From assembly GCA_963817235.1 (NCBI GenBank), contig CAWFNS010000001.1, positions 8,595-72,594 of the forward strand: a stretch of 64,000 nt of DNA, read 5' to 3'. The notes below the pieces were generated by a model. That model searched no databases. It was not told the DNA's origin and saw nothing but the letters and a program-made list of their open reading frames with translations. Below are positions 4,281 to 61,972 of this stretch, one piece after another. The stretch comes from an uncultured Actinomycetes bacterium. GTDB taxonomy: Bacteria > Actinomycetota > UBA4738 > HRBIN12. The position numbers and the translations under genes are program-made. Each line of letters starts with the position of its first letter. Positions within the stretch are counted from its first letter, which is position 1.

Positions 4281-4783
4281 ATGCGTGTGTCCTGGGCGTG
4301 GACCCCGGTGTGGCGAAGGTCGGGCTCGCGGTGGTTCGCGGCCACGACCGCACGGCCGAGCTCGTCTGGGCGGGAACGGTCCGCACGGCGGCCGATGTGC
4401 CGGAGGCCGGCCGGCTCCGGGTGGTCGCCGAGGCGGTGCGCGCCGCGATCGCCGAGCACCGTCCGGCCGCGGTGTCGATCGAGCGGGTCGCCTGGAACCG
4501 GAACCAGGTGAGCGCGCTCCAGGTCGCGAGGGCGACCGGCGCCGTGATGGTCGTGGCGGCGGAGGCCGGCCTGCCGGTCGAGGAGTACGGTCCGAACGAG
4601 GTGAAGATCGCGGTCACGGGCGCCGGCAACGCGGGCAAGCGGGAGGTGCAGTCGGCGCTCGTTCGCCTCCACGGGCTCCGCGGCGTGCCGTCCCAGCCCG
4701 ACGCGGCCGACGCGGTCGCGGTCGCGCTCACCCACCTGGTGGGGGCCCGCATGCGGGCGCTGTCGCGCGTGGGCGCGCGATGA
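4274..4783 (+). CDS. ruvC: Holliday junction resolvase
   Basis: [36 protein letters not shown]; start could instead be ATG 4281 if a GT dinucleotide is a sequencing insertion. Confidence 0.93.
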
Positions 4784-5346
4784 TCGCGTTCCTCGAAGGC
4801 GAGGTCGTCGACAAGGGCGCCGCCCGCGTCGTCATCGCGGTCGACGGGGTGGGTTACGAGCTGGCGGTGCCGAGCTCGGTGCTGACGGCGCTGCCGGCGG
4901 CGGGGGAGACCGCGCGCGTGCACACGCGGATGGTCGTGCGGGAGGACGCGATCACGCTGTTCGGGTTCGCGACGACCGACGAACGCGAGCTCTTCGACCG
5001 CCTGATCGGCGTCACCGGCGTCGGCCCGAAGGTCGCGCTCGCGTTCCTGTCCGCCCTGAAGCCCGACGCGATCCGGCGCGCGGTCGTCTCGGGCGATGCG
5101 GCCGCGTTGACCGTGGTGCCCGGGGTCGGCAAGAAGGTGGCGCAGCGCGTGGTGCTCGACCTCCGCGACGCGCTGGGCGGCGAGGCGGAGCTCACCGTGG
5201 AAGGGCCGCTGGCCGACGTGCGCGACGCGCTCGTGGCGCTCGGGCTGACCCCGGTCGAGGCATCCGAGGCGATGCGCGAGCTGGACGCGGACGGCAAGCC
5301 GGCCGACGAGCTGCTGCGCGAGGCGCTGCAGCGGGTGGGCCGATGA
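4780..5346 (+). CDS. ruvA: Holliday junction branch migration protein
   Basis: [34 protein letters not shown]; ATGA overlap with ruvC. Confidence 0.95.
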
Positions 5347-6366
5347 GCGACGAGCTCGAGCGGTTGACCGAGGGCGAGGCGATCTCGCCGGAGGATCGCG
5401 AGCTGGACGTCGCCCTGCGGCCGCGCTCGCTCGAGGAGTTCGTCGGGCAGGACAGGGTGAAGGAACAGCTCGCGGTCCTGCTGGAAGGGGCGCGCAACCG
5501 CGGCGAGCCGGTGGATCACCTGCTGTTCAGCGGGCCGCCGGGCCTCGGCAAGACGACGCTCGCGCAGATCGTCGCGCACGAGATGCGGGCCGGGTTCCAG
5601 CCGACGTCGGGGCCGGCGCTCGAGCGCCCGAGCGATCTCGCCGCGATCCTCACGAACCTCGGCGAGGGCGACGTGCTGTTCGTCGACGAGATCCACCGCA
5701 TGCCGAAGTCGGTCGAGGAGGTGCTGTATCCGGCGCTCGAGGACTTCACGCTCGACATCGTGCTCGGCAAGGGTGCGACCGCGCGGTCGATCCGGCTCGA
5801 CCTGCCGCGGTTCACGTTCGTCGGCGCCACCACCAGGCCCGGGCGGATCACGCGGCCGCTCCGCGAGCGCTTCGGGTTCTCCCCGCGCCTGGACTACTAC
5901 GTCGTCGAGGACCTGACCTCGATCGTGCGCCGCTCGGCCAGGCATCCTCGGCGTGGAGACCGACGCCGACGGCGCCCACGAGATCGCGCGCCGCTCGCGC
6001 GGCACGCCGCGCATCGCGAACCGCCTCCTGCGCCGGGTGCGCGACGTGGCGGAGGTCCGGCACGACGGGCGCGTGACCGGCGACGTCGCGCGCGCCGGGC
6101 TCGAGGTGTTCGAGGTCGACGAGGAGGGTCTGGACCGGTTGGACCACGCCGTGCTGCACGTGATCATCGAGAAGTTCGCCGGCGGACCGGTGGGCCTGTC
6201 GACGCTCAGCGCCGCGGTGGGGGAGGAGCCGGACACGATCGAGGACGTCGTCGAGCCGTACCTGCTGCAGCTGGGGTTCCTGCAGCGGACGCCGCGGGGC
6301 CGCGTTGCCACGGAACGCGCCTATCGGCACCTCGGCGCGACGGTGCCCGGCCGGCTCCCGCTGTAG
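5343..6366 (+). CDS. ruvB: Holliday junction branch migration helicase (frameshift near 5940)
   Basis: [49 protein letters not shown]. Confidence 0.96.
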
Positions 6367-6459
6367 AGCGGCGCCCGGGGCCCGCGGCGCGTTGCCGCAG
6401 GTAGACTCGGGTGCCGTTCCCACGAACCCGGAAGAACCGAGAAGGAAGGACGCACGCCC

Positions 6460-6861
6460 GTGATCGCCCAGCTCCTCGCCGCCTCGTCCGGCTCGGCGGC
6501 AGCCTCATCACCCTGCTGGTGTTCATGCTGCCCCTCGGCCTGCTGTTCGTGTTCATGCGGAACCAGCAGAAGCGCGTGAAGCAGCAGCAATCGAACCAGC
6601 AGGCCGCCCAGGTCGGCGAGGACATCCTCACGACCTCGGGCATCTTCGGCACGATCGTCGACGAGGACGAGGAGGAGGGCATCGTCACCGTCGAGATCGC
6701 CCCCGGCACCCAGATCAGGATGGTGCGTGCCGGCATCGCCCGCCGGATCACCGAGGATGCCTACGACGACGACGACGGGCTACGCCGCCGACGACGAGGA
6801 CGACACCGACGTCTCCGACGACGAGCCCGACGAGAACGCCCAGGGCCCCATCCGGTCGTGA
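6460..6861 (+). CDS. yajC: preprotein translocase subunit YajC (frameshifts near 6495 and 6780)
   Basis: TM helix, then QQKRVKQQQ and VGEDILTTSGIFGTI; acidic tail; TAGACT -10 at 6402-6407; position before secDF. Confidence 0.85.
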
Positions 6862-7601
6862 GCGAGGAAGGCGCGATCGGCACGCCCGAGGGCGCGCCCG
6901 TCCCCGAGGTACCGATCGTCGAGCCCCCCGCGGCTGAGGCCGCCAGCATCGCGCTCCTCGACGTCCAGGAGGATCCCGAGCTCTCGCTGTACATCGCCTC
7001 GGCGGACCGGGTGATGGACGCGATGGGCTACACCGAGCACGGCTTCCGGCACGCGAACCTCGTCGCGAAGATCGCGTACCAGGTGCTGCACCGGCTCGGC
7101 TACTCCGAGCGCGAGGCCGAGCTGGCGTGCGTGGCCGGCTACCTGCACGACGTCGGGAACGCGCTGGCCCGCGACGCGCACGGCCAGACCGGCGCCGTGA
7201 TGGTCTACCAGGCCCTGAAGGACCGCGCGAGCGGCCCCGACCTGATGCCGATCGTCGCCGCGATCGCGAACCACGAGGAGGCGGAGGGCACCGCGGTCTC
7301 GCCGATCTCGGCCGCCGTGATCCTCGCGGACAAATCCGACGTGCACCGCAGCCGCGTACGCAAAGCGGTGACCCTCGATCGCGACATCCACGACCGCGTG
7401 AACTACGCCGTTGAGCAGAGTTTCCTCCGGGTAGACTCCGACGCTCGAACGGTCAGCCTCGAGCTGACGATCGACACGACCATCAGCAAGGTCATGGAGT
7501 ACTTCGAGATCTTCCTGGGCAGGATGCAGCTGTGCCGCTTCGCGGCCGAAGCCGTGGACGCGCGCTTCCGCCTGGTGATCAACGGGCAGGAGCTGGCATG
7601 A
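6858..7601 (+). CDS. HD-domain metal-dependent phosphohydrolase
   Basis: GYTEHGFRH, LHDVGN, ANHEE, ADKSDVHRSRV, HDRVNYAV motifs. Confidence 0.88.
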   Translation: MSEEGAIGTPEGAPVPEVPIVEPPAAEAASIALLDVQEDPELSLYIASADRVMDAMGYTEHGFRHANLVAKIAYQVLHRLGYSEREAELACVAGYLHDVGNALARDAHGQTGAVMVYQALKDRASGPDLMPIVAAIANHEEAEGTAVSPISAAVILADKSDVHRSRVRKAVTLDRDIHDRVNYAVEQSFLRVDSDARTVSLELTIDTTISKVMEYFEIFLGRMQLCRFAAEAVDARFRLVINGQELA

Positions 7602-9776
7602 AGAAGACGCGCGGCCTGTGGATCTCGGTGATCCTGGTCGCCGTCCTCGTGGTGGTCTCCGTCGTCGGGTTCGCGGTCGGCAGCCTGAAGCCGGTCCTCG
7701 GCCTCGACCTGGAGGGCGGCGTCTCCGTGATCCTGTCCGCGCCGGAGGGCACGCCGCGCGACGTGATGAACCAGGCGCTGGAGAACATCCGCAACCGCGT
7801 CGACGCGTTCGGCGTGGGCGAGCCCGACATCGTGCTGGCCGGCAACACGATCGAGATCCAGATCCCGGGTCTGTCCAACAGCACCGTGCAGCAGCGGAGC
7901 TCCGACGTCTACTGCATCACGGATCCGTCGGGGACCAGCTACGGCTGCTCGGCCGATCAGGCGCCGCCGAAGGAGGCGCTCGGCGGGTTCCAGGTGACCT
8001 CGGAGCCCACGAAGGTCTGCCTCGTCACCACGGATGCCGATCCACTGAAGTGCTACTCCACGGCGGCCGAGGCCGCGGCCGCGAAGGGCGGGATCACCGT
8101 GCAGCCCAAGCAGAGCGCCACGCCGACCCCGTCGGTCTCGGCCTCGGCCGTCCCGAGCGCCTCGCCGACGGCGGGTCCGCCGCCGCAGGCGTCGTCGTAC
8201 TGCCTCACCGACTTCGCCGAGAACGAACTGCACTGCTACCCGACGCAGGCGCAGGCGGAGGCCGCCCGCAAGGCGATCACCACGACGACCACCCAGACCA
8301 CCTGGTGCATCGAGCCGGCGACGCCGCCGAGCGCGACCGCGAGCGCCACGCCGACGCCGAGCGCCTCGGCCTCGTTGTCGCCGTCGGCGTCGGCCTCGCC
8401 CACGCCCGACGCGGCCGCGGCGTTCGATCAGCTGGACCGCGGTTCTGCGCAGCCCCTGCCGTGCGACTTCGCGACGAAGCAGACCGCCCAGGCCGCGCTG
8501 GACGGGTTCGCGGTGAACCACGTGACGACGCAGTACTGCGTCGTGAGCTCGCAGAACGAGGAGCTCGGCTGCTTCACGACGCAGGCCGCCGCCGCCGAGA
8601 AGCAGCGAGAGACCGGCCAGCAGCACCTGCTGGACATCATCGGGAAGACCGCGCGTCTGGAGGAACGGGCGACGATCCAGATCGTCACGCCGGCCGATCC
8701 GCAGTACGACTCGATCCAGCTGACGTGTCAGACCGCGGCCGAGCAGGCCACGAGGTCGTGCCTCGCCGCCGCGCAGGACAAGAACCCCGTCTGGTACCCG
8801 GACCAACAGAAGGACAAGGTCAACCTGGGGCCGGTCATCATCACCGGCAGCGACATCACGAAGGCCTCCGCGCAGCTGAGCAGCGACCCGAACACCGGGG
8901 TCACGCAATGGGTGGTGGCGTTCCAGCTGAACGGCACGGGCTCCGCGAAGTTCGAGCAGGCGACGCGGGCGGCCCTGAACGCGCCGCCGCCGCAGAACCA
9001 GATCGCGATCGCCGTGGACCGCACGATCATCTCGAACCCGGTCGTGAACGGCGTGATCACCGGCAACGGCGAGATCAGCGGCAACTTCACCGAGCAGGAG
9101 GCGAAGGACCTCGCCACGGTGTTGAACGCCGGCGCCCTGCCGGTGGAGCTGACGCGGCAGTCGGTGCAGACCGTGAGCCCGACCCTCGGTGCGCAGTCGC
9201 TGCGCCAGGGCATCATCGCCGGGATCGCGGGTCTGATCCTGCTGTTCGTCTACCTGCTCCTGTACTACCGCCTGCTCGGCATCGTCGCGTGGGTCGGCAT
9301 GACGATCTGGGCGATCCTCGCGCTCGCGCTCGTGTCCGTTCGCCGGCAAGAGCTTCGGCTACGCGCTGTCGCTGGCCGGCGTGGCGGGTCTGGTGATCTC
9401 CCTCGGGGTCACGGCCGACTCCTACATCGTGTTCTTCGAACGATTGAAGGACGAGGTCCGGTCGGGGCGGTCGCCGCGGACGGCGACCCAACCGGCGTTC
9501 AAGCGGGCGTTCCGCACGATCGTGGCGGCCGACACCGTCACCGGCATCGCCGCCGCGGTCCTGTACCTGACGGCCGTCAGCTCCGTCCGCGGGTTCGCGC
9601 TCACGCTGGGCGTGGCCACCCTGCTCGACCTGTTCGTCGTCTACTTCTTCAAGCGGCCGACGGTGTACCTCATCTCGCGGAACCCGAGGCTGGTCGAGAT
9701 GCCCGGCTTCGGGCTGGGCTCGGCGGCCGCGGCCGACCACGAGGCGCTCGACACCTCGGGGGAGCCGGCGTCGTGA
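7598..9776 (+). CDS. secD: protein translocase subunit SecD with a large Cys-repeat insertion (frameshift near 9340)
   Basis: LGLDLEGG, RNRVDAFGVGEP, VLNAGALP, VSPTLG, DSYIVFFERLKDE, VRGFALTL. Confidence 0.93.
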
Positions 9777-47695: not shown

Positions 47696-49394
<1,699 letters not shown>

Positions 49395-50690: not shown

Positions 50691-51832
50691 CGTCCCACCC
50701 GCCCGCGCTGCTCGCGCTGGAGGACGGCACCGTGTTCGCGGGCACGTCCTTCGGCGCGGAGGGCGAGGCGTTCGGCGAGGCCGTCTTCAACACGGGCATG
50801 GCCGGCTACCAGGAGGTGCTCACCGATCCCTCGTACGCCCGGCAGATCGTGGCGATGACGTCGCCGCACCAGGGCAACTACGGGGTCAACGGGGAGGATC
50901 CGGAGAGCTGGCGCCTGCAGGTCGCGGGGTTCGCGGTCCGGGAGGCCTCCCGGCGCGCGAGCTCGTGGCGCGCCGAGGGATCGCTGGGCGAGCTCCTGGC
51001 GGCCGACGGCGTGCCGGGCATCGAGGGGATCGACACGCGGAAGCTGACCCGTCGCCTGCGGGAGCACGGCGCGATGCGCGCCGCGATCTCCACGGTGGAC
51101 CTCGATCCGGCGTCGCTCGTCGAGCGGGTCCGCGGCATCGCCGGCATGGCCGGGGCGGATCTGGCGCGGTCGGTCAGCACGGCAGAGCCCTACGACGCCT
51201 CGGCGCTCGTGGGGGCCCCCTCCGCCGAGAACGGGCCGGTGTTCCGGGTCGCGGCGTACGACTTCGGCTTGAAGCGGAACATCCTGCGGCTGCTGCGGGA
51301 CCACGGGATCGGCTGCACGGTCGTGCCCGCGGACACCCCTGCGGCCGAGGTGGCGCGCGGCGGCTACGACGGCGTCTTCCTGTCCAACGGCCCCGGCGAT
51401 CCGGCCGCGACGGCGTACGGCATCACCGCGACGCGGGAGCTGCTCGGGAAGGTGCCGATCTTCGGGATCTGCCTCGGCCACCAGTTGCTCGGGCTCGCCC
51501 TCGGCGGGCGGACGTACAAGATGACGTTCGGTCATCGGGGCGTGAACCAACCCGTGCAGAACCTCCGCAGCGGCGCCGTGGAGATCACGAGCCACAACCA
51601 CGGTTTCGCGGTCGATCCCGACGCGTGGCGCTTCGACGGCGACGGCGTCGCGCAGACCGACGTCGGCGGTGTGGTCGCGAGCCACCGGAACCTGAACGAC
51701 GGCACCCTCGAGGGCCTGCGATGCCTCGACGTGCCGGCGTTCGGGGTCCAGTACCACCCGGAGGCCGCTCCCGGGCCGCACGACTCCCGGTACCTGTTCG
51801 AGGAGTTCCGCGAACTGATGGCGAGCAGCTGA
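50687..51832 (+). CDS. carA: carbamoyl-phosphate synthase small subunit
   Basis: [46 protein letters not shown]. Confidence 0.97.
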
Positions 51833-54800
51833 TGCCCAAGCGCACCGATCTGCACCGCATCATGGTGATCGGCTCGGGCCCGATCGTGATCGGCCAGGCG
51901 TGCGAGTTCGACTACTCCGGCACGCAGGCCTGCAAGGTCCTGCGCGCGGAGGGCTTCGAGGTCTCGCTGGTCAACTCGAACCCGGCGACGATCATGACCG
52001 ACCCGGCGTTCGCGGACCGGACCTACATCGAACCCCTCACGCCCGCGTCCGTCCTGCAGATCCTCGAGCGCGAGAAGCCGGACGCCCTGCTGCCCACCCT
52101 CGGGGGCCAGACCGGACTGAACGTCAGCGTCGCCCTCGCGGAATCCGGCGACCTGGAGCGGCTCGGGATCTCGCTGCTGGGCGCGTCGCTCGAGGCGATC
52201 CACACCGCCGAGGATCGCAGCGGGTTCGCACGCGCGATGCGCGAGGCCGGCCTGGACGTGCCGCGCGCCGGCACCGCACGGACGCTGGAGGACGCGCTCG
52301 CGGTGGGGGAGCGGCTCGGCTTCCCGGTGATCGTCCGGCCGTCGTTCACGCTCGGCGGCGGCGGGAGCGGGTTCGCACGCAGCGCCGAGGAGCTCGCGAC
52401 CGTCGCCGGGCGGGCGCTCGCGGTCTCGCCGGTGCACGAGGCGCTGATCGAGGAGTCGGTCGCCGGGTGGAAGGAGTTCGAGCTCGAGGTGATGCGCGAC
52501 GGCGCCGACAACGCGGTGATCGTCTGCTCGATCGAGAACGTCGATCCGATGGGCGTGCACACGGGCGACTCGATCACGGTGGCGCCGCAGCAGACGCTGA
52601 CCGACCGTGAGTACCAGCGGATGCGCGACGCCGCGATCCAGGTCCTGCGGGTCGTGGGCGTCGAGACCGGCGGCTCGAACGTCCAGTTCGCCGTGGACCC
52701 CCGGACCGGTCGGCAGGTGCTGATCGAGATGAACCCGCGCGTCTCCCGCTCGAGCGCGCTCGCCTCGAAGGCGACCGGCTTCCCCATCGCGAAGATCGCG
52801 GCGCTGCTCGCGGTGGGCTACCGGCTGGACGAGATCCGCAACGACATCACCGGGGAGACGCCCGCGGCGTTCGAGCCGACGCTGGACTACGTCGTCGTGA
52901 AGATCCCGCGGTTCGCGTTCGAGAAGTTCCCCGAGGCGGACCCGGTCCTGACGTCCACGATGAAGTCGGTCGGCGAGGTGATGGCGATCGGCAGGACGTT
53001 CAAGGAAGCGCTCGGCAAGGCGTGGCGCGGCCTCGAGAAGTCGATGGACGCCGGCTGGCCGTTGGGAGAAGGAGGAGCCCGCTCGAGGCGCTCGGCACGC
53101 CGACCGAGGGCCGGCTGCACCAGGTCGCCGGCGCCCTCGCGCGCGGCGAGGGCGTGGACGCGGTCGCGGCCGCCTCCTCGATCGACCCCTGGTTCGTCGA
53201 TCAGATCGCCGAGGTCGTCGAGGAGGGGTTCGCGCTGCGCGGGCGGCCCCTGCACGCCCTCGGCGCCCGCGAGCTGCGCTCGGCCAAGCGCCTGGGCCTG
53301 TCGGATGCCTCCGTCGCGTCCCTCACCGGGCGCGACGGAGGCCGCGGTCCGCCGGCATCGCGACGCGCTCGGGGTCGAGCCCGTCTTCAAGACGGTGGAC
53401 ACCTGCGGCGGCGAGTTCCCGGCGCGCACGCCGTACCACTACTCCACCTACGAGGACGAGTCCGAGGTCGAGCCCGCGGCGCGCCCGCGCGTCGTGATCC
53501 TCGGCGCCGGTCCGAACCGGATCGGCCAGGGCATCGAGTTCGACTACGCCTGCGTCCACGCCGCGTTCGCGTTGGAGGAGGCCGGCTTCGAATCGGTCAT
53601 GATCAACTCGAACCCCGAAACGGTCTCGACGGACTACGACACCTCGAGCCGGTTGTACTTCGAGCCGCTGACCCCCGAGGACGTGCTGGCCGTCTGCCGC
53701 GCGGAGCGGCCGGTCGGCGTGATCGCGCAGTTCGGCGGGCAGACGCCGCTGCGCCTCGCGCGGATCCTCCAGGAGGAGGGCTTCGCGATCATGGGCACCA
53801 GCCCGGACGCGATCGACCTGGCCGAGGACCGTGGGAAGTTCGCCGCGATCCTCGAGGAGCTCGAGATCTCGGCGCCGCCGCACGGCCAGGCGCGCACGAT
53901 GACCGAGGCGCGCGACGTGGCCACGCGGATCGGCTATCCCGTCGTCGTCCGCCCGAGCTACGTGCTGGGCGGCCGGGCGATGGAGATCGTCTACGACGAC
54001 GCGGAGCTCGAGGGGTTCGTGCGGACCGCGGCCGCCGCCTCGCCGGATCATCCGGTGCTGATCGACCGGTTCCTCGAAGGCGCCATCGAGGTCGACGTCG
54101 ACGCGGTCTGCGACGCGACCGGGGATCTGTTCGTCGGCGCGGTGATGGAGCACATCGAGGAGGCCGGCGTGCACTCCGGCGATTCGTCGTGCCAGATCCC
54201 GCCGGCGACGCTCGGCGACGACGAGCTCGACGCGATCGAGGACATCACGCGCCGGCTCGCGCGGCGCCTCGGCGTGGTCGGACTGCTGAACCTCCAGCTC
54301 GCCGTGAAGGACGAGCGGCTGTGGGTCCTCGAAGCGAACCCGCGCGCCTCCCGCACCGTGCCGTTCGTGAGCAAGGTGACCGGGGTGTCGCTCGCGCGGA
54401 TCGCCACGCTGGTCCTCGCCGGCGGCCGCCTCGCGGATCTTCGCGCCGCGGGCTCGCTGCCGGGCGACGCGCGGCACTACCGGCACCTGCCCTCCACGAG
54501 CGTGAAGGCGGCCGTGCTGCCGTTCGGTCGGTTCCCGGGGGTCGACACCGTGCTCGGACCGGAGATGCGTTCGACCGGGGAGGTCATGGGGATCGACACC
54601 GATCCCGGCATGGCGCTCGCGAAGGCGATGGTCGCGGCGGGGCACGCGCTGCCGAGCGCCGGGCACGGTCTTCGTGTCCGTCGCGAACCGCGACAAGCGC
54701 GCGATCGCGTTCCCGGCGAAGCGCCTGGTCGACATGGGGTTCCGGCTCGTCGCGACGCGCGGGACGGCCGGCGTGCTCGAGCGGGCCGGCATCGCCGTCG

Positions 54801-55126
54801 ACACCGTGGCGAAGGTCTCGGAGGGTCCCGACAACGTCGCCGAGCTGATCCGGTCGGGTGGGATCGACCTGGTCATCAACACGCCCTTCGGACGCGCCCC
54901 CCGCTCGGACGGGTCGCTGATCCGCACCGCCGCCGCCTCGGTCGGGGTGCCGTGCTTCACGACGCTCCCCGGCGCCCTGGCGGCGGTCCGGGGGATCGAG
55001 GCGCTCCGCAGCGACCCGACCGAACCGCGCTCGCTCCAGGAGCATCACGACGCGGCGAGGGCGGCGCCGGTGCAGGCGCGCCTCACGTTCGATGAGGCGG
55101 CGAGGAACGCGGAGGCGAGCGCGTGA
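51832..55126 (+). CDS. carB: carbamoyl-phosphate synthase large subunit (frameshifts near 53080, 53325 and 54665)
   Basis: [15 protein letters not shown], two ATP-grasp halves ([10 protein letters not shown]; EANPRASRT), C-terminal MGS-like domain. Confidence 0.96.
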
Positions 55127-55996
55127 AACGGGCGCGGTCCGAGATCCTGTCGACGCGGAAACTCGGTGCGTACCAGTCCATCACGCTCGTCGCGCCGGAG
55201 ATCGCCGACCGGGCGAGGCCCGGGCAGTTCCTTGCCGTCGCGATGCCCGAAGGGCGGGATTTCGTCCTGCGGCGGCACTTCTCGATCCATCAGGCCTCCC
55301 GGCGGGGGCGGATGGGCCGGAACGCTGGAGTTCGTCGTGGATCCGGCGTCGGGGCCCGGGACCGGCTGGCTCTCGCGCGTCGCGGCGCATCAGTTCCTCG
55401 ACGTGATCGGCCCGCTCGGCAAGTCGTTCTCGTATCCGAAGCGACTCACCAGTTGCATGCTGGTCGCGGAGGGGCGCGGCGCGGCCGGCCTGTACTTCCT
55501 GGCGCAGGAGCTGGTCGCCCGCCACAAGCGGGTCGACATGGTGATCGGCGCGCCGACGCTCGATGCCGTCTTCAAGCCGATCGAAGCCAAGCGCCTGTCG
55601 CAGACGGTGTCGATCGTGACGGCGGACGGCTCGCTCGGGGAGAAGGGCGGCGTGCTCGACGTGCTGCCGGAGGCCGTCGCGCGCGCGAGCACCGAGGTGC
55701 TCTACGCGGCCGCGGATCCGCGGACGCTCCGCGACGTCGCGGAGTTCTGCGCGGTGCAGCGGATCCCCGCGCAGGTCGCCGTCGAGGAACGGATGGGATG
55801 CGGCTTCGGCCTGTGCGGCACGTGCGTCGTGCCGGTCGCGCGGAAGGATGGGAGCGGCTCGGACAACCTGCGCGCGTGCATCGACGGTCCCGTCTTCAAC
55901 CCCGCGCGCGTCGTGTGGGACCGGTGGATCGCCGATCCCTCGTCGTTCGAGGAGATGCGGCGCTCGACCGGTACGGGGAGCCGTGATGCCCGCTAG
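55123..55996 (+). CDS. pyrK: dihydroorotate dehydrogenase electron-transfer subunit-like protein (frameshift near 55310)
   Basis: PGQF, LRR.FSI, GPLG, EERMGCGFGLCGTC...C.DGPVF [2Fe-2S] motif. Confidence 0.85.
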
Positions 55997-56945
55997 GGAA
56001 CGCACACTCGCGGTCGACCTGGGCGGCGTGGTCCTGCCGACGCCCGCGATGATCGCCGCCGGGTGCGCGGGGACCGGGCGCGAGCTCAGCGGACTCGTCG
56101 ACCTGCGCCGCGTCGGCGGGCTCGTGTCGAGGACGATCACCGTGCGGCCGCGCGCGGGGTCGACGACCCCGCGCATCACCGAGTCGCCGGCCGGCGTCGT
56201 GTGGGACACGGGACTGCAGAACGCCGGGGTGGACGCGTTCACGGCCGAGGAGCTGCCGCGGTTGGCGCGCGGCGGGGCGCCGACGTTCGTCTCGATCGGC
56301 GGCGGCACGCTCGAGGAGTACGTCCGCCTGACGAGCGCGCTGCAGGCGCGCCCGGAGGTGGCGGCGATCGAGGTCTACCTGTCCGGCCGCGACGAGACGA
56401 TGGATCACGACGTCCTGGGCGCGCACGTCGAGCGGCTCGTGGAGATCGTCGGCGCCGTCGCCCGGACCTCGCTCGTGCCGGTCTTCGCCAAGCTCCCGGG
56501 CGGCTCCGTCGATCCGGTGACGCTCGCGCGGGCGGCGGTGCGGGCGGGCGCCACCGGCCTGACCCTGTCCGGCTCCCCGCCTGCGCTCAGCGTCGAGGCC
56601 GCGCAGCTCCGGCCGGCGCTCGGCGGCGTCACCGGATGGCTCTCGGGTCCGGCCCTGAAGCCCTTGACGCTCCGGACGGTCTTCGAGGTGTCGGCCGCGC
56701 TGCCCGACGTGCCGCTGATCGCGAGCGGCGGCGTCCGCACCGGCCTCGACGCGGTGGAGTGCCTGCTCGCCGGCGCGTGGGCCGTCCAGATCGGCACCGG
56801 GACCCTGATCGATCCGGCGGCGCCGGTCGAGGTCGCCCGCGAGATCGCCCGGTACCTCAAGGCCCTTCGGCTCCGGTCGCCCGCCGAGCTCCGCGGACGT
56901 CTGCGGCTCCCGGTCGCGCCCTCCACCGAGGTCGCGGGCGCGTGA
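55986..56945 (+). CDS. pyrD: dihydroorotate dehydrogenase family 1B homolog with a degenerate active site
   Basis: PR..E...G...GLQN.G, KL, G.LSGPA.KP, GGV, A.AVQIGT; position between pyrK and pyrF; catalytic SCPN motif absent. Confidence 0.8.
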   Translation: MPARERTLAVDLGGVVLPTPAMIAAGCAGTGRELSGLVDLRRVGGLVSRTITVRPRAGSTTPRITESPAGVVWDTGLQNAGVDAFTAEELPRLARGGAPTFVSIGGGTLEEYVRLTSALQARPEVAAIEVYLSGRDETMDHDVLGAHVERLVEIVGAVARTSLVPVFAKLPGGSVDPVTLARAAVRAGATGLTLSGSPPALSVEAAQLRPALGGVTGWLSGPALKPLTLRTVFEVSAALPDVPLIASGGVRTGLDAVECLLAGAWAVQIGTGTLIDPAAPVEVAREIARYLKALRLRSPAELRGRLRLPVAPSTEVAGA

Positions 56946-57634
56946 TCCCGCCGCCGGCGAACCCGCTCATCGCGGCGCTCGACGTGTCCGATCCGGAGGA
57001 GGTCGAGCGCCTCGGCGCCCTCCTCGGGCCGCACGTCGGGATGCTGAAGGTCGGCCTCGAGCTGGCGTGGGCGATGGGCCCCGACGCCGTGCGGCGTGTC
57101 GGGGCCTACGGGCCGGTGTTCGTCGACGCGAAGCTCCACGACATCCCGAACACGGTCGAACGGGCGAGCGCGAACATCGCGCGCCTCGGCGTGGCGATGC
57201 TCAACGTGCACGCGTTGGGGGGTGACGCGATGATGCGGGCGGCTCGCGAGGGCGCGGCGCGCGGCGCCGAGGCCGCGGGCGTGCCGATGCCACTCGTGAT
57301 CGCCGTGACGGTGCTGTCGTCGCAGAGCGGCGAAGGGCTCGCGTCGCCGGCGTCGCTCGCCTGGGAGGCGAAGGAGGCCGGCCTCGACGGCGTCGTCGTG
57401 TCGGGTGAGGACGTCCGCGACGTCCGCGACGCGTGCGGTGACGCGTTCTGTCTCGCGGTGCCCGGCATCCGCCCGCCGGGTTCGAACGGCGACGATCAGG
57501 TGCGCGTGCTCACGCCGCGCGCGGCGATCGAGCGCGGCGCCGACTACCTCATCGTCGGACGACCGGTCACGGCGTCGGCCGATCCCGTGGGTGTGGTGCG
57601 CGGCATGCTGCATGACGTCGGCCGCTCCGGCTGA
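56942..57634 (+). CDS. pyrF: orotidine-5'-phosphate decarboxylase
   Basis: ALD, LKVG, D.KLHDIPNTV, VHALGG, AVTVLSS, PGIR, DQ.R..TP, VGRP. Confidence 0.95.
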   Translation: MIPPPANPLIAALDVSDPEEVERLGALLGPHVGMLKVGLELAWAMGPDAVRRVGAYGPVFVDAKLHDIPNTVERASANIARLGVAMLNVHALGGDAMMRAAREGAARGAEAAGVPMPLVIAVTVLSSQSGEGLASPASLAWEAKEAGLDGVVVSGEDVRDVRDACGDAFCLAVPGIRPPGSNGDDQVRVLTPRAAIERGADYLIVGRPVTASADPVGVVRGMLHDVGRSG

Positions 57635-58916: not shown

Positions 58917-60122
58917 GTGGCCGGGCGGCGCGTGCTGCTCGGGATCACCGGGGGCATCGCCGCCTACAAGGCCGCGATCCTCGCGCGCGCGCTCGTCGTC
59001 GCTGAGGCCGAGGTCACCTGTGTCCTGACCGAGTCGGCGACCCGGTTCGTCGGCGCCGCGACGTTCGCCGCGTTGACCGGGCGGGAGGCGTTCACCTCCC
59101 TGTGGGAGCGCCCGGGCGAGGTCCTGCACGTCCGGCTCGCGCACGACGCCGACCTCGTCGTCATCGCGCCGTGCACGGCGAACGTCCTGGCGAAGCTCGC
59201 GCACGGCGCGGCCGACGACCTGCTGAGCGCGACCCTCCTCGAGTACGACGGCCCCGTCCTGCTCGCGCCCGCGATGCACACCGGCATGTGGAAGGCCGAT
59301 GGCGACGCGGGCCAACGTCGCGACGCTCGAGGCGCGCGGCGTCCGCTTCGTCGGACCGACGGAAGGTCCCCTCGCGCACGGCGACGAAGGCATCGGCCGC
59401 ATGAGCGAGCCGGACGACATCGTGCGGGCCGTGCTCGGCTCGCTCCGTCCTCGCGACCTCGACGGCCGCCGCATCCTGATCACGGCGGGCCCGACGCACG
59501 AGCCGATCGATCCGGTTCGGTTCGTCGGCAATCGGTCGAGCGGCCGGATGGGCGTTGCGCTCGCCGCCGAAGCGGCGGCACGGGGCGCGGCGGTGACCCT
59601 CGTCCTCGGCCCTGGCACGGTCGCGCCGCCGCCCGACGTCGACGTCGTGCGGATCGAGACGGCGGAGCAGCTGCGCGACGCCGTCCTCGAGCGCGCGAGG
59701 AGACGGCCGACGCCGTGGTGATGGCCGCCGCCGTCGCGGACTTCCGGCCGAAGATCGTCGCGCACACGAAGCTGAAGAAGGACCAGGGAGTGCCGGACAT
59801 CGTCCTGGAGCCGACGCCCGATGTGCTCGCGGAGCTGGGTGAACGGCGTCGCCCCGGTCAGATCCTGGTGGGGTTCGCGGCCGAGACCGGCGACGTGCTC
59901 GAGGCCGGGCGCGCGAAGCTCCGCCGCAAGCATCTCGATCTCCTGGTCGCGAACCTCGTCGGCCGGGAGGGGACCGGCTTCGGCAGCGACACGAACGAGG
60001 CCGCGATCCTCGACGCGGGGGGCGACGACGAGCCGATGCGCACGTGGACGAAGGCGCACCTGGCCGCGGCGATCTGCGATCGCCTCGCGCACGCGTTCGC
60101 CGACGCGCCCGGGCCCGGATGA
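58917..60122 (+). CDS. coaBC: bifunctional phosphopantothenoylcysteine decarboxylase/ligase (frameshifts near 59295 and 59700)
   Basis: GITGGIAAYKA, APCTAN, APAMH..MW, TAGPT.E.IDPVRF..N.SSG.MG, AAVADF, GFAAET. Confidence 0.95.
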   Translation: MAGRRVLLGITGGIAAYKAAILARALVVAEAEVTCVLTESATRFVGAATFAALTGREAFTSLWERPGEVLHVRLAHDADLVVIAPCTANVLAKLAHGAADDLLSATLLEYDGPVLLAPAMHTGMWKADGDAGQRRDARGARRPLRRTDGRSPRARRRRHRPHERAGRHRAGRARLAPSSRPRRPPHPDHGGPDARADRSGSVRRQSVERPDGRCARRRSGGTGRGGDPRPRPWHGRAAARRRRRADRDGGAAARRRPRAREETADAVVMAAAVADFRPKIVAHTKLKKDQGVPDIVLEPTPDVLAELGERRRPGQILVGFAAETGDVLEAGRAKLRRKHLDLLVANLVGREGTGFGSDTNEAAILDAGGDDEPMRTWTKAHLAAAICDRLAHAFADAPGPG

Positions 60123-60760
60123 GCGATCCGCGGGCGGCGAAGGACCTCGTCCGCGCTGGCTACGACGCGATCTCCGAGACCTATCGGGCCGACGCGTTCA
60201 CCCTCGAAGGCTCCGGCTACGAACGCGCGGTGCTCGCCGTGGAGCGCCGGACGCCGACCGGGGGTCGCGTGCTCGATCTGGGCTGCGGGTGCGGCGTCCC
60301 GGTCGCGCTGCGTCTCGCCCCGAGCTACGACGTCACCGGCGTGGACTTCAGTGCGCGGCAGATCGAGCGTGCGCGGGCGCTCGTGCCGGCGGCGACGTTC
60401 GTCCACGCCGACCTCACCGAGGTGGAGCTGCCGGCGGCGTCGTTCGACGCGGTGGTCTCGTTCTACGCGATCATCCACGTTCCCTTGGAGGAGCAACCGG
60501 CGGTCTTCGATCGGATCGCCCGCTGGCTGAAGCCGGGCGGGATCGTCTGCGCGAGCCTCGGGCACCGGGCATGGACCGGAACCGAGGACGACTGGCACGG
60601 AGCGCCGATGCGCTGGAGCCACGCCGACCGGGCGACGTACGCCTCGTGGCTCCTCGAGCGCGGCTTCCGGATCGACGACGAGTGGTTCATCCCGGAGGAC
60701 GACGGGGGCCATGCGGCGTTCCTCGCCACCCTCCTGACGGGCGTCGGCGAGCGCCGGTAG
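60119..60760 (+). CDS. class I SAM-dependent methyltransferase
   Basis: VLDLGCG.G, GVDFS..QI..A, ASFDAV.SFYAI.H, L.PGG. Confidence 0.88.
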   Translation: MSDPRAAKDLVRAGYDAISETYRADAFTLEGSGYERAVLAVERRTPTGGRVLDLGCGCGVPVALRLAPSYDVTGVDFSARQIERARALVPAATFVHADLTEVELPAASFDAVVSFYAIIHVPLEEQPAVFDRIARWLKPGGIVCASLGHRAWTGTEDDWHGAPMRWSHADRATYASWLLERGFRIDDEWFIPEDDGGHAAFLATLLTGVGERR

Positions 60761-60772
60761 ACTCGGCGGATC

Positions 60773-61972
60773 ATGAGCGAAGGCCACCTGTTCTCGTCCG
60801 AATCCGTCACCGAGGGCCACCCCGACAAGCTGGCCGACCAGATCAGCGACGCCGTCCTGGACGCGATGCTCGCGAAGGACCCGAACAGCCGCGTCGCGTG
60901 CGAGACCCTCGTCACCACGGGGGTCGTCGTCGTTTCCGGGGAGATCACCACGGACGGCTACGTCGACATCCCGTCGGTCGTGCGCCGGACCGTGACCGAC
61001 GTCGGCTACACGGACGCGAAGTTCGGGCTCGACGGGGAGACGTGCGGCGTCATCACCGCGATCCAGGAACAGTCGGCCGACATCGCGCTCGGCGTCGACC
61101 ACGCGCTCGAGTCGCGCGGCGCAGGCGCCGGCAGCGGGGATGAGCTCGATGTGCTCGGCGCCGGCGACCAGGGCATGATGTTCGGCTACGCGTGCCGCGA
61201 GACCGACGAGCTGATGCCGGTGCCGATCGCGGTGGCGCACCGCCTGTCGCATCGCCTGTCCGACGTTCGGAAGGCCGGCGTGATCCCGTACCTGCGGCCC
61301 GACGGCAAGAGCCAGGTCTCGGTGCGGTACGTGGACGGCAAGCCGACGCGCATCGACACCGTCCTGATCAGCGCCCAGCATCGCGAGGAGGTGGACGTCG
61401 AGACGCTGCTGCGACCCGACGTCGAGGCCGAGGTGATCGACCCCGTGCTCCGGGAGTTCCCCGATCTCGCGAGCGACGGGGTCAAGGTCCTCGTGAACCC
61501 CACCGGCCGGTTCGAGATCGGAGGCCCGAAGGCGGACACCGGACTGACCGGGCGCAAGATCATCGTCGACACCTACGGTGGGATGGCGCCGCACGGCGGC
61601 GGCGCGTTCAGCGGCAAGGACCCGACGAAGGTCGACCGCTCGGGCGCCTACATGACGCGGTACGTCGCGAAGAACGTCGTCGCCGCGGGCCTCGCCGACC
61701 GGTGCCTGCTCCAGGTCGCCTATGCGATCGGCACGGCGCACCCCATGTCGCTGATGGTCGACACCTACGGCACCGAACAGGTCGATCCCGCGAAGCTCGA
61801 AGCGGCGATCTGGGAGATCTTCGACTTCCGGCCGGCCGCGATCATCCGCGATCTCGACCTGCGCCGGCCGATCTACCTCGAGACCGCGGCGTACGGGCAT
61901 TTCGGTCGCAAGGAGTTCCCGTGGGAAGCGACCGACCGTGTCGACGCGCTCCGGAGCGCCTGCGGCGCCTGA
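60773..61972 (+). CDS. metK: S-adenosylmethionine synthetase
   Basis: [57 protein letters not shown]. Confidence 0.98.

What the first reader, a model, noticed from the sequence alone, without database searches (positions are those of the whole stretch)
55986..56945. PyrD homolog lacking the catalytic Cys and orotate-binding Asn residues
The family-1 signature ELNxSCPN reads EVYLSGRD (codons tac/ggc/cgc/gac, i.e. point substitutions, not a frameshift). The NAxGLxN first Asn is Asp (WDTGLQN), INT is SGS, and the FMN-contacting Lys of KxT is Arg. The fold and FMN-phosphate motifs remain, and the gene stays in the pyr operon with pyrK. It may be a pseudoenzyme or an FMN oxidoreductase with a new substrate, implying that real DHOD activity is encoded elsewhere or uses different chemistry.
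Basis: partly seen in the sequence, partly recalled or inferred. Interest (0 to 1): 0.65.

Follow-up and report, generated by a model that had tools for sequence, protein, structure and literature searches.

The report
Conserved dead-site PyrD/PyrK enzyme pair
An uncultured soil actinobacterium keeps in its pyrimidine operon, under strong selection, a two-subunit dihydroorotate dehydrogenase B that has lost its substrate and NAD sites but kept its flavin and iron-sulfur sites; a separate quinone-type enzyme next to pyrE almost certainly does the real reaction, so the pair must have another, unknown job.

Summary
Window 55986-56945 encodes a 319-aa PyrD class-1B homolog. Lys169 and the FMN-phosphate motifs are kept.

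It is not an error. An independent short-read contig and the 120 best homologs carry the same losses.

The partner PyrK' has lost its NAD motifs (GGG to AEG, CGP to AAx) but keeps the FAD motif and all four [2Fe-2S] cysteines.

In 151 genomes of the order, families with only PyrK/PyrD have canonical sites. The sister clade has a class-2-like DHOD with an intact site, head-to-head with pyrE, and a degenerate pair. This points to one vertical origin.

The pair is under strong purifying selection: dN/dS is 0.09 and 0.07, and PyrK' is as conserved as active PyrK.

The lost positions are the orotate pocket. They vary between genera, which argues against a new conserved substrate.

My reading: a substrate-blind, cofactor-bearing DHODB remnant kept for a non-DHOD role that I could not identify.

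Cultured Streptomycetaceae (Kitasatospora) show an independent, earlier stage of the same process. I found no description in the literature.

The parts
51832..55126 (+). carB (carbamoyl-phosphate synthase large subunit). Its stop overlaps the pyrK' start (GTGA). It is broken in this assembly by single-base indels at 53077, 53328 and 54661.
   Evidence: ORF translations. Indel list against L006. Coordinate map. Pfam content of the intact ortholog in L005/L006.
55123..55996 (+). pyrK' (degenerate DHODB electron-transfer subunit). The FAD motif LRRHFSIH and four [2Fe-2S] Cys are kept. The NAD motifs are lost. A 1-base insertion at 55304 splits the frame in this assembly only.
   Evidence: Alignment to PyrK 5KSW_B/1EP3_B. 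Motif table over 57 genomes. Lost and gained columns.
55466..55489 (+). Former NAD pyrophosphate loop of PyrK'. It reads A-E-G-R-G-A-A-G where canonical relatives read G-G-G-Y-G-A-A-P. The Glu is 96% conserved in the family.
   Evidence: Sequence..
55799..55879 (+). [2Fe-2S] ligand region of PyrK' (CGFGLCGTC...C). All four Cys are conserved in the degenerate and canonical clades.
55986..56945 (+). pyrD' (the finding): a 319-aa DHODB-fold TIM barrel without the DHO/orotate site. It overlaps pyrK' by 11 nt, and its stop overlaps the pyrF start (GTGA).
   Evidence: AF2 model with pLDDT 82 and pTM 0.84. Foldseek top hits are DHODB 5UE9/1EP3 at TM 0.86-0.87.
56130..56132 (+). Arg49 in place of the flavin-N5/orotate Lys48. 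It is Arg in 100% of the family.
56202..56207 (+). Trp73-Asp74 in place of Asn72-Ala73 (first orotate Asn).
56376..56393 (+). Y-L-S-G-R-D in place of N-I-S-C-P-N (catalytic-loop signature). Asp136 is 96% conserved in the family; the other positions vary.
56490..56492 (+). Lys169 (the FMN N1/O2 lysine by homology). It is retained and invariant in all clades.
56571..56576 (+). Gly196-Ser197 in place of Asn197-Thr198.
56637..56639 (+). Trp218 in place of the second Gly of GGLSGP. It is invariant in the 18-sequence alignment A1 of close homologs, but W in only 12 of 26 family-f1 sequences.
56942..57634 (+). pyrF (OMP decarboxylase), the last pyr gene of the operon. mihF, gmk, rpoZ, coaBC, a methyltransferase, metK and priA follow.

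Best explanation
pyrK'-pyrD' encode a remnant of NAD-dependent dihydroorotate dehydrogenase B. It most likely still folds and assembles as a heterotetramer and still carries FAD, a [2Fe-2S] cluster and FMN. It can no longer bind or oxidise dihydroorotate, because the catalytic Cys, Lys48 and all four pyrimidine-binding Asn are gone. It also cannot use NAD, because the GGG and CGP motifs of PyrK are gone.

Dihydroorotate oxidation in this organism is done by a separate class-2-like, presumably quinone-linked PyrD that lies head-to-head with pyrE.

The replacement happened once, at the base of a clade of five families. Afterwards the old pocket drifted and was probably filled in (Arg49, Asp136, Trp73 and Trp218 in this subclade; Glu116 in the NAD loop).

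The pair is kept by selection for a role that does not depend on DHOD catalysis. I think the most likely role is a flavin/iron-sulfur-dependent one, either redox sensing or electron relay to a protein partner. A purely structural role within pyrimidine synthesis is less likely.

Shown here:
- loss of both substrate sites;
- retention of the cofactor motifs;
- presence of an intact second DHOD;
- single origin;
- purifying selection.

Inferred, not shown:
- cofactor occupancy;
- complex formation;
- plugging of the pocket;
- the actual role.
For: Site loss:
- Searches show the changes. C-to-A and K-to-A mutations abolish class-1 DHODH function in complementation tests (PMC10395836).
- PyrK' has lost the NAD motifs, while the FAD RRxFS motif and four Cys are invariant.
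- FMN-side motifs are as conserved in the degenerate clade as in active enzymes: ASG, K169, GxLSGP, GG, GTA.

Second DHOD:
- It is intact in all 23 orthologs checked and adjacent to pyrE and qcrAB.

Order-wide pattern:
- Families f5, f7 and f8 have a canonical pair and no class-2 gene. Families f1, f2, f3 and f6 have a degenerate pair plus a class-2-like gene; f4 (one genome, 83% complete) has a degenerate pair but no class-2 gene was found in it.
- On the tree the two groups are sister clades, with support 98 and 99.
- Five other actinobacterial genomes with a canonical 1B have only one PF01180 gene.

Selection:
- dN/dS is 0.09 for pyrD' and 0.07 for pyrK', against 0.22 for pyrF.
- Divergence relative to PyrF is 1.37x for PyrD' (1.10x in active families) and 1.01x for PyrK' (1.15x in active families).
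- A homolog of the PyrD subunit is present in 143 of 151 genomes, and in 90 of 91 high-quality ones; stop codons inside a match are very rare in the listed rows (one TGA, G147).
- PyrD' and PyrK' co-vary beyond phylogeny: partial r is 0.72, p 0.0005.

Fold:
- The AF2 model has the DHODB fold.
Against: - No biochemical data exist. Cofactor binding is inferred from motifs only, and some of the lost Asn residues also contact FMN in known DHODs (my own knowledge), so FMN affinity may be reduced.
- No partner, new neighbouring gene or new conserved pocket points to a specific role.
- The link between the class-2 gene and degeneration rests on one evolutionary event in this order, plus the Streptomycetaceae case. 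It is not many independent replicates.
- Three f1 genomes lack a detectable class-2-like gene (G149, G140, G130; completeness 84-93%), and one 97%-complete genome (G131) lacks pyrD'. Dispensability in some lineages is therefore possible.
- Streptomyces and mycobacteria do without the pair altogether (my own knowledge).
- I had no atomic coordinates, so the 'plugged pocket' idea is untested.
Confidence: 0.6

Rival explanations
1. The pair is a neofunctionalised oxidoreductase. It still turns over a small-molecule substrate at the FMN site, something other than a pyrimidine, and uses a hydride or electron carrier other than NAD at the FAD site.
For: Purifying selection is strong and all three cofactor sites are retained. 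Some residues are newly fixed: Arg49 (100%), Asp136 (96%), Pro171 and Arg114 in PyrD', and Glu116 (96%) in the old NAD loop of PyrK'. There is a precedent: fungal class-1A-like proteins that coexist with a class-2 DHODH turned out to be dihydrouracil oxidases (PMC10395836).
Against: Apart from Arg49 and Asp136, the former pocket positions vary between genera of one family. Position 72 is W/T/S/Y, 132 is Y/H/N/R/C, 135 is G/A/E/C/T, 197 is D/G/A and 219 is W/G/Y/F/R. A conserved substrate site should not look like that. No new gene joins the operon. The fungal precedent keeps SCPNV; this protein does not.
Confidence: 0.22
2. The pair is a cryptic DHOD. It still oxidises dihydroorotate with a different catalytic base and different binding residues.
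For: It sits in the pyr operon between carB and pyrF and is translationally coupled to both. Three family genomes show no class-2-like gene.
Against: All pyrimidine-contacting Asn, the Cys base and Lys48 are replaced, and the replacements are not conserved. The PyrK NAD site is gone too. An intact DHOD next to pyrE is present in nearly all carriers. The three exceptions are 84-93% complete, and one of them (G130) is almost identical to a genome that has the gene. C-to-A and K-to-A mutations kill class-1 DHODH.
Confidence: 0.04
3. The pair is a neutral relic. It is functionless and decaying slowly, kept only because deleting it would disturb translational coupling between carB and pyrF.
For: Start and stop codons overlap at all three junctions. 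Degeneration is graded across families. In Streptomycetaceae, catalytic residues are lost sporadically. Many actinobacteria lack the pair (my own knowledge). G131 may have lost it.
Against: dN/dS is 0.07-0.09, lower than for pyrF. PyrK' is as conserved as active PyrK, and PyrD' is only about 25% faster than active PyrD. The cofactor ligands are invariant. The ORFs are intact in nearly all of the 2-3 Mb genomes across at least five families. Coupling would preserve an open frame, not the amino-acid sequence.
Confidence: 0.08
4. The odd motifs come from sequencing or assembly errors in this window.
For: The window does carry many single-base homopolymer indels that break carB, pyrK', gmk, coaBC and priA.
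Against: There is no indel inside pyrD'. The same residues occur in a short-read contig at 98% protein identity and in the 120 best homolog clusters.
Confidence: 0.01

Closest known systems
Class-1B dihydroorotate dehydrogenase of Lactococcus lactis (PyrDB/PyrK heterotetramer; PDB 1EP1-1EP3, 5UE9, 5KSW)
   Same: The fold is the same (Foldseek TM 0.86-0.87), with 31% identity over the whole barrel. The gene order pyrK-pyrD is the same. The FMN-phosphate motifs, Lys169, the PyrK FAD motif and the four [2Fe-2S] Cys are kept.
   Different: K48R, N72W, N132Y, C135G, N137D and N197G/T198S in PyrD'. GGG to AEG and CGP to AAA/AAG in PyrK'. It scores below the NCBIfam equivalog cut-offs.
Canonical PyrK/PyrD of sister families in the same order (f5, f7, f8) and of Micrococcales-type actinobacteria (Knoellia, Pseudokineococcus)
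   Same: These are orthologous genes in the same operon slot. Protein identity is 40-48%. The tree is monophyletic for the order, with support 99.
   Different: Their sites are complete (VTKSVT, MLNAIGLQNPG, IEANISCPNV, SLINTL; PyrK GGGYGAAP, YACGPN). Their genomes have no class-2-like DHOD.
In-operon 1B-like pair of cultured Streptomycetaceae (for example Kitasatospora cineracea GCA_003814885.1: carB, class-2 pyrD, pyrK', pyrD', pyrF)
   Same: A PyrK/PyrD-1B pair coexists with a class-2 DHOD between carB and pyrF. Many members have lost K48 and/or C135. K. cineracea PyrK' has also lost its GGG and CGP motifs.
   Different: The origin is independent; it is a separate clade next to Micrococcales-type 1B. 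The stage is earlier and patchy: 87 of 121 clusters keep all eight key residues and the Asn residues are mostly intact. Here the class-2 gene is inside the operon rather than beside pyrE.
Fungal class-1A DHODH-like proteins that coexist with class-2 DHODH (dihydrouracil oxidases; PMC10395836)
   Same: A DHOD-family paralog is annotated as a DHOD but is not one, in an organism whose real DHOD is class 2.
   Different: The fungal proteins keep the SCPNV Cys loop and act on a pyrimidine (dihydrouracil). The actinobacterial pair has lost the whole pyrimidine site and has a PyrK partner.
NCBIfam NF005741 (PRK07565) 'dihydroorotate dehydrogenase-like protein'
   Same: It is a DHOD-fold protein without the catalytic Cys and of unknown function. 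This genome has one too, at L003:1336-2373(-).
   Different: It is a different subfamily. P0001 scores 47.9 bits against a cut-off of 303. It has no PyrK partner and is not in the pyr operon.
Catalytically dead paralogs retained as partners ('prozymes' of trypanosomatid AdoMetDC and deoxyhypusine synthase; PMC6221367, PMC3663545)
   Same: These are dead enzyme copies kept under selection for a non-catalytic role.
   Different: Those act by heteromerising with the active paralog. Nothing here shows contact between the pair and the class-2-like DHOD. This is an analogy only.

Membership tests
Class-1B DHOD catalytic subunit PyrD (NF005574 / TIGR01037) | DHO_dh TIM-barrel fold (PF01180) | tested here: met
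   PF01180 scores 144.6 bits against a cut-off of 27. The AF2 model matches 5UE9/1EP3 at TM 0.86-0.87.
Class-1B DHOD catalytic subunit PyrD (NF005574 / TIGR01037) | Score above the curated equivalog or subfamily cut-off | tested here: not met
   NF005574 scores 229.4 against 269. TIGR01037 scores 198.1 against 270.
Class-1B DHOD catalytic subunit PyrD (NF005574 / TIGR01037) | Catalytic base Cys135 in the N-x-S-C-P-N loop | tested here: not met
   The loop reads Y-L-S-G-R-D. In the family this position is G/A/E/T, with C only in genus g6.
Class-1B DHOD catalytic subunit PyrD (NF005574 / TIGR01037) | Pyrimidine-binding Asn72, Asn132, Asn137 and Asn197 (plus Thr198) | tested here: not met
   They are W, Y, D and G (plus S).
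Class-1B DHOD catalytic subunit PyrD (NF005574 / TIGR01037) | Lys48 at flavin N5 / orotate carboxylate | tested here: not met
   It is Arg49, which is Arg in 100% of the family.
Class-1B DHOD catalytic subunit PyrD (NF005574 / TIGR01037) | FMN-binding scaffold (Lys169, GxLSGP, GG, GT(A/G)) | tested here: met
   The motifs are present and as conserved as in active relatives. Actual FMN binding cannot be tested with these tools.
Class-1B DHOD catalytic subunit PyrD (NF005574 / TIGR01037) | Dihydroorotate:NAD+ oxidoreductase activity | not testable with these tools
   This needs an enzyme assay or complementation.
DHODB electron-transfer subunit PyrK (NF000799 and relatives) | FAD motif RxxS and four Cys ligands of the [2Fe-2S] cluster | tested here: met
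   LRRHFSIH and C-x4-C-x2-C...C align to 5KSW_B/1EP3_B and are invariant.
DHODB electron-transfer subunit PyrK (NF000799 and relatives) | NAD-binding GGGxGxxP loop and CGP motif | tested here: not met
   The protein has AEGRGAAG and YAAAD. Canonical relatives have GGGYGAAP and YACGPN.
DHODB electron-transfer subunit PyrK (NF000799 and relatives) | Score above the curated cut-off | tested here: not met
   NF000799 scores 117 against 314.
Class-2 (quinone) DHOD: test for the second gene P0122, not for the finding | N-terminal helical domain, catalytic Ser, Lys, Asn and Thr set | tested here: met
   FAMDPETAH, AAGFDK, NAMGLPN, NASSPN, FAKLP, CTNT and GGLSG are all present. All 23 orthologs are intact, with Ser or Cys as base.
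Class-2 (quinone) DHOD: test for the second gene P0122, not for the finding | Score above the curated equivalog cut-off | tested here: not met
   NF003652 scores 223 against 267. TIGR01036 scores 165 against 200. It is a divergent subfamily, and quinone use is inferred.
PreA / dihydropyrimidine dehydrogenase and PRK07565 DHOD-like protein | Score above the curated cut-off | tested here: not met
   NF006183 scores 49.7 against 335. NF005741 scores 47.9 against 303.

The most novel reading that the evidence does not exclude
The PyrK'/PyrD' tetramer is a genuinely new kind of bacterial pseudoenzyme complex. It would be a substrate-less FAD / [2Fe-2S] / FMN 'wire' whose pockets have been sealed. 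It would work as a redox sensor, or as an electron relay to a protein partner that tunes pyrimidine synthesis. This catalysis-independent role may already exist in active DHODB, which would explain why the pair also survives catalytic death independently in Streptomycetaceae.
Probability: 0.3. Interest if true: 0.75.

Novelty: new variant of a known kind. Interest (0 to 1): 0.55.

Why it matters
1. Annotation. Sources name these proteins 'dihydroorotate dehydrogenase (NAD+) catalytic subunit', including those from cultured Kitasatospora and Streptacidiphilus (hundreds of homolog clusters). Metabolic reconstructions of abundant soil Actinomycetota would therefore assign the wrong enzyme, the wrong electron acceptor (NAD instead of quinone) and the wrong oxygen dependence to pyrimidine synthesis.

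2. Evolution. This is a clean, datable case of non-orthologous displacement. One clade shows every stage of decay, from an intact site to a partial one to a fully erased one. Both substrate sites of a two-subunit, three-cofactor enzyme are lost together.

3. Function. Purifying selection on PyrK' equals that on active PyrK. The complex therefore does something that is not DHOD catalysis. Bacterial pseudoenzyme complexes of this kind are, to my knowledge, hardly documented.

4. Testability. Cultured Kitasatospora strains carry both naturally dead and naturally intact versions, so the question can be tested directly.

Tried and rejected
- Sequencing artefact. Rejected: there are no gaps in pyrD' against L006, and independent assemblies carry the same residues.
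- Lineage-specific pseudogene. Rejected by dN/dS and order-wide retention.
- Membership in PreA/DPD, PRK07565, IPP isomerase 2 or other FMN barrels. Scores are far below the cut-offs.
- A third real DHOD in the genome. The remaining PF01180 hits are a PRK07565-type protein (L003) and a 25-bit match that I did not examine (L004).
- A genome that relies on the dead pair alone. G149, G140 and G130 lack the class-2-like gene but are 84-93% complete. G130's near-twin G057 has the gene. G149's second PF01180 hit is the PRK07565 type. I treat these as assembly gaps, though that is not proven.
- Pocket geometry from the AF2 model. No coordinates were available to scripts, so the 'plugged pocket' idea stays an inference.
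- Literature. Four full-text searches found no description of a degenerate DHODB pair. PMC3224940 and PMC4177761 discuss only the distribution of the DHOD classes.
- A Pfam scan of the truncated pyrE fragment from the window's own genome gave nothing. The intact ortholog in G081 hits TIGR00336 pyrE at 97 bits, just below the 106.8 cut-off because I supplied a trimmed sequence.
Full report
**What is there**

Window 55986-56945 (+) is an uninterrupted 319-codon gene (P0001). It lies in a 72% G+C actinobacterial operon.

Mapping onto two clean relatives gives the gene order pyrR-pyrB-pyrC-carA-carB-pyrK'-pyrD'-pyrF-mihF-gmk-rpoZ-coaBC-(methyltransferase)-metK-priA.

The three junctions around the pair all overlap:
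- carB/pyrK': GTGA at 55123-26.
- pyrK'/pyrD': 11 nt.
- pyrD'/pyrF: GTGA at 56942-45.

P0001 is clearly a DHOD-fold protein, with PF01180 at 144.6 bits. It falls below NCBI's cut-offs for every curated DHOD family. The best is PyrD-1B PRK07259, at 229 against 269.

**Checking the observation**

- Lys48 to Arg.
- Asn132 to Tyr.
- Cys135 to Gly.
- Asn137 to Asp.
- Asn197-Thr198 to Gly-Ser.
- Lys169 and the GxLSGP, GG and GT(G) phosphate motifs are retained.

By position Asn72 is replaced by Trp73; the Asp follows it.

The assembly of this window is poor. Against a 95.5%-identical short-read contig (L006) it shows about twenty isolated single-base indels downstream of pyrB (34 gap openings in all), many in short G or C runs. 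These break carB, pyrK' (55304), gmk, coaBC and priA. Several broken essential genes in 16 kb can hardly be real.

Inside pyrD' there are 37 mismatches and no gap. The 120 best homologs (65-98% identity, many assemblies) all lack the same residues.

**The partner subunit**

PyrK' was read from L006 because of the frameshift in the window. It aligns to L. lactis PyrK. It keeps the FAD motif (LRRHFSIH) and all four [2Fe-2S] cysteines.

The NAD loop GGGxGxxP reads AEGRGAAG, and the CGP motif reads AAA/AAG. Across 57 genomes these losses go together with the losses in PyrD.

A column-by-column comparison shows that the positions 'lost' in PyrK' lie in the NAD-binding half. Glu116 is newly fixed, at 96%.

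**Where the real enzyme is**

The genome (a 2.99-Mb MAG, 13 contigs) has a better PF01180 match on another contig. It is a 323-aa protein, P0122, with these features:
- the class-2 N-terminal domain (FAMDPETAH);
- AAGFDK;
- NAMGLPN;
- NASSPN, with Ser as base;
- FAKLP;
- CTNT.

In the complete genome of a congener it lies head-to-head with pyrE and next to qcrA/qcrB. All 23 orthologs I fetched have a complete site.

It scores slightly below the class-2 equivalog cut-offs, so it is a divergent subfamily and quinone use is inferred.

**Evolutionary pattern**

I searched 151 genomes of the order with both proteins. I fetched 57 pyrK-pyrD loci and tabulated the key motifs.

- Families f5, f7 and f8 have a canonical pair (VTKSVT / MLNAIGLQNPG / IEANISCPNV / SLINTL; PyrK GGGYGAAP, YACGPN) and no class-2-like gene.
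- Families f1, f2, f3 and f6 have the class-2-like gene and a degenerate pair.
- The single f4 genome (83% complete) has a degenerate pair, but no class-2 gene was found in it.

The decay is graded:
- Some f6 genomes have lost only Lys48 and Asn72.
- f2 keeps N-x-x-C-P-N but has lost the rest.
- f1, the window's family, has lost everything.

On a maximum-likelihood tree the order's PyrD genes are monophyletic (support 99). They split into a canonical clade (98) and a degenerate clade (99) that follow the family taxonomy. That means one vertical origin.

Five other actinobacterial genomes with a canonical 1B have exactly one PF01180 gene.

The association therefore rests on essentially one event in this order. 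That is a caveat.

**Selection**

Between the window and L006:
- pyrD' has 30 synonymous and 7 non-synonymous differences (dN/dS 0.09);
- pyrK' has dN/dS 0.07;
- pyrF has dN/dS 0.22.

Scaled to PyrF divergence between the same genomes:
- PyrD' evolves at 1.37x in f1, against 1.10x for active PyrD in f5, f7 and f8;
- PyrK' evolves at 1.01x, against 1.15x for active PyrK.

A PyrD' homolog is present in 143 of 151 genomes, and in 90 of 91 high-quality ones.

PyrD' and PyrK' distances co-vary after removing the PyrF signal: partial r is 0.72 with permutation p 0.0005. This is at least as strong as in the active families, where r is 0.46. It is consistent with a persisting complex.

**What kind of function?**

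The columns that are invariant in active enzymes but not in f1 are exactly the DHO/orotate pocket: 48, 70-72, 74, 132, 135, 137, 196-198, 201 and 219. Most of them vary between genera of the family.

Only Arg49, Asp136, Pro171 and Arg114 are newly fixed. Trp73 and Trp218 are fixed only in the window's subclade.

The FMN-side motifs are as conserved as in active enzymes.

This pattern fits loss of the substrate site with retention of the flavin better than it fits a new conserved substrate site.

I infer, without coordinates, that Arg49-Asp136 and the two Trp residues fill the old pocket and that Glu116 blocks the NAD cleft. The AF2 model confirms only the overall fold (pLDDT 82; DHODB is the top hit at TM 0.86-0.87).

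**A second, independent case in cultured bacteria**

A HMMER scan of 1.84 billion representative proteins turned up further degenerate DHODB-like clusters.

On a tree, eleven of them form a separate clade (support 96) beside Micrococcales-type canonical enzymes, outside the window's order.

Its named members are Kitasatospora, Streptacidiphilus, some Streptomyces, Embleya and Allostreptomyces.

In K. cineracea the operon is carA-carB-pyrD(class 2)-pyrK'-pyrD'-pyrF. Its PyrD' is K48R/C135A/N137G. Its PyrK' has lost GGG, CGP, the FAD-motif Ser and about 17 residues, but keeps the four Cys.

Of 121 clusters of this clade, 87 keep all eight key residues. The other 34 have lost Lys48 and/or Cys135 in scattered combinations.

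This looks like an early, repeated version of what the window's clade shows at a late stage. It also provides cultured material for experiments.

**Comparison with what is known**

Mutating the Cys or the Lys abolishes class-1 DHODH function. Fungal '1A-like' proteins that coexist with class 2 turned out to be dihydrouracil oxidases, but these keep SCPNV (PMC10395836).

Four full-text searches found no description of a PyrK/PyrD pair with both substrate sites erased.

I re-derived it here independently and added:
- the canonical sister families;
- the rate comparison;
- the co-variation test;
- the Streptomycetaceae case.

**Verdict**

My estimated odds:
- The protein is not the organism's DHOD: about 0.9.
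- The real DHOD is the class-2-like gene beside pyrE: about 0.9.
- The pair is a selected, cofactor-bearing but substrate-blind remnant: about 0.6.

Its role is unknown. I favour a flavin/iron-sulfur-dependent sensing or relay role over a purely structural one, and both over a new small-molecule reaction.

Noticed in passing
window 53077, 53328, 54661, 55304, 58073, 58427, 58649, 59300, 59633-59636, 59698, 60481-60485, 61122-61126, 62354, 62642: Single-base (rarely 2-4 base) indels relative to the 95.5%-identical short-read contig L006, mostly in homopolymer runs. They break carB, pyrK', gmk, coaBC, priA and possibly metK. This is probably a long-read assembly error pattern and may explain the MAG's low 'completeness' of 76%.
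   Followed up: partly
L001:1366-2337 (G000:C2:363727-364695) and orthologs L144-L165: The class-2-like DHOD of this clade alternates between Ser (NASSPNAG) and Cys (NASCPNVS) as catalytic base, even within one genus. It scores below all NCBIfam class-2 cut-offs. It lies head-to-head with pyrE and next to qcrA/qcrB.
   Followed up: partly
L172 (Kitasatospora cineracea GCA_003814885.1) 4769-8821: A cultured actinomycete has class-2 pyrD, a degenerate pyrK' and a degenerate pyrD-1B' side by side between carB and pyrF. Across Streptomycetaceae, 34 of 121 protein clusters of this 1B-like gene have lost Lys48 and/or Cys135 in scattered combinations.
   Followed up: partly
L172 5866-6195: The spacer between class-2 pyrD and pyrK' contains a tandem duplication of roughly 130 bp.
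   Followed up: no
L134, L137, L138, L140 (family f8 genomes G008, G024, G028, G053): Otherwise canonical PyrD-1B proteins, which are the only DHOD of their genomes, carry Ser instead of Cys as the presumed catalytic base (NISSPNF / NLSSPNx).
   Followed up: no
L003:1336-2373 (-) in the window's genome; L166 (G149:C8): A third DHOD-fold gene of the PRK07565 'DHOD-like protein' type (ALELNVYF, no Cys). In G149 it lies directly downstream of a pyruvate:ferredoxin-oxidoreductase-like gene.
   Followed up: no
P0133, P0184, P0200, P0262 (representative library): Further degenerate DHODB-like representatives branch near a Chloroflexota sequence rather than with either actinobacterial degenerate clade. 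They may be additional independent cases.
   Followed up: no
window 48406-48465: An indel-rich, poorly alignable stretch at the pyrR 3' end / pyrB start compared with L006. The window is 18 bases longer here.
   Followed up: no
window 60119-60760: A CMAS-type methyltransferase gene sits between coaBC and metK here and in L006. It is absent at this place in the congener L005 (G081).
   Followed up: no
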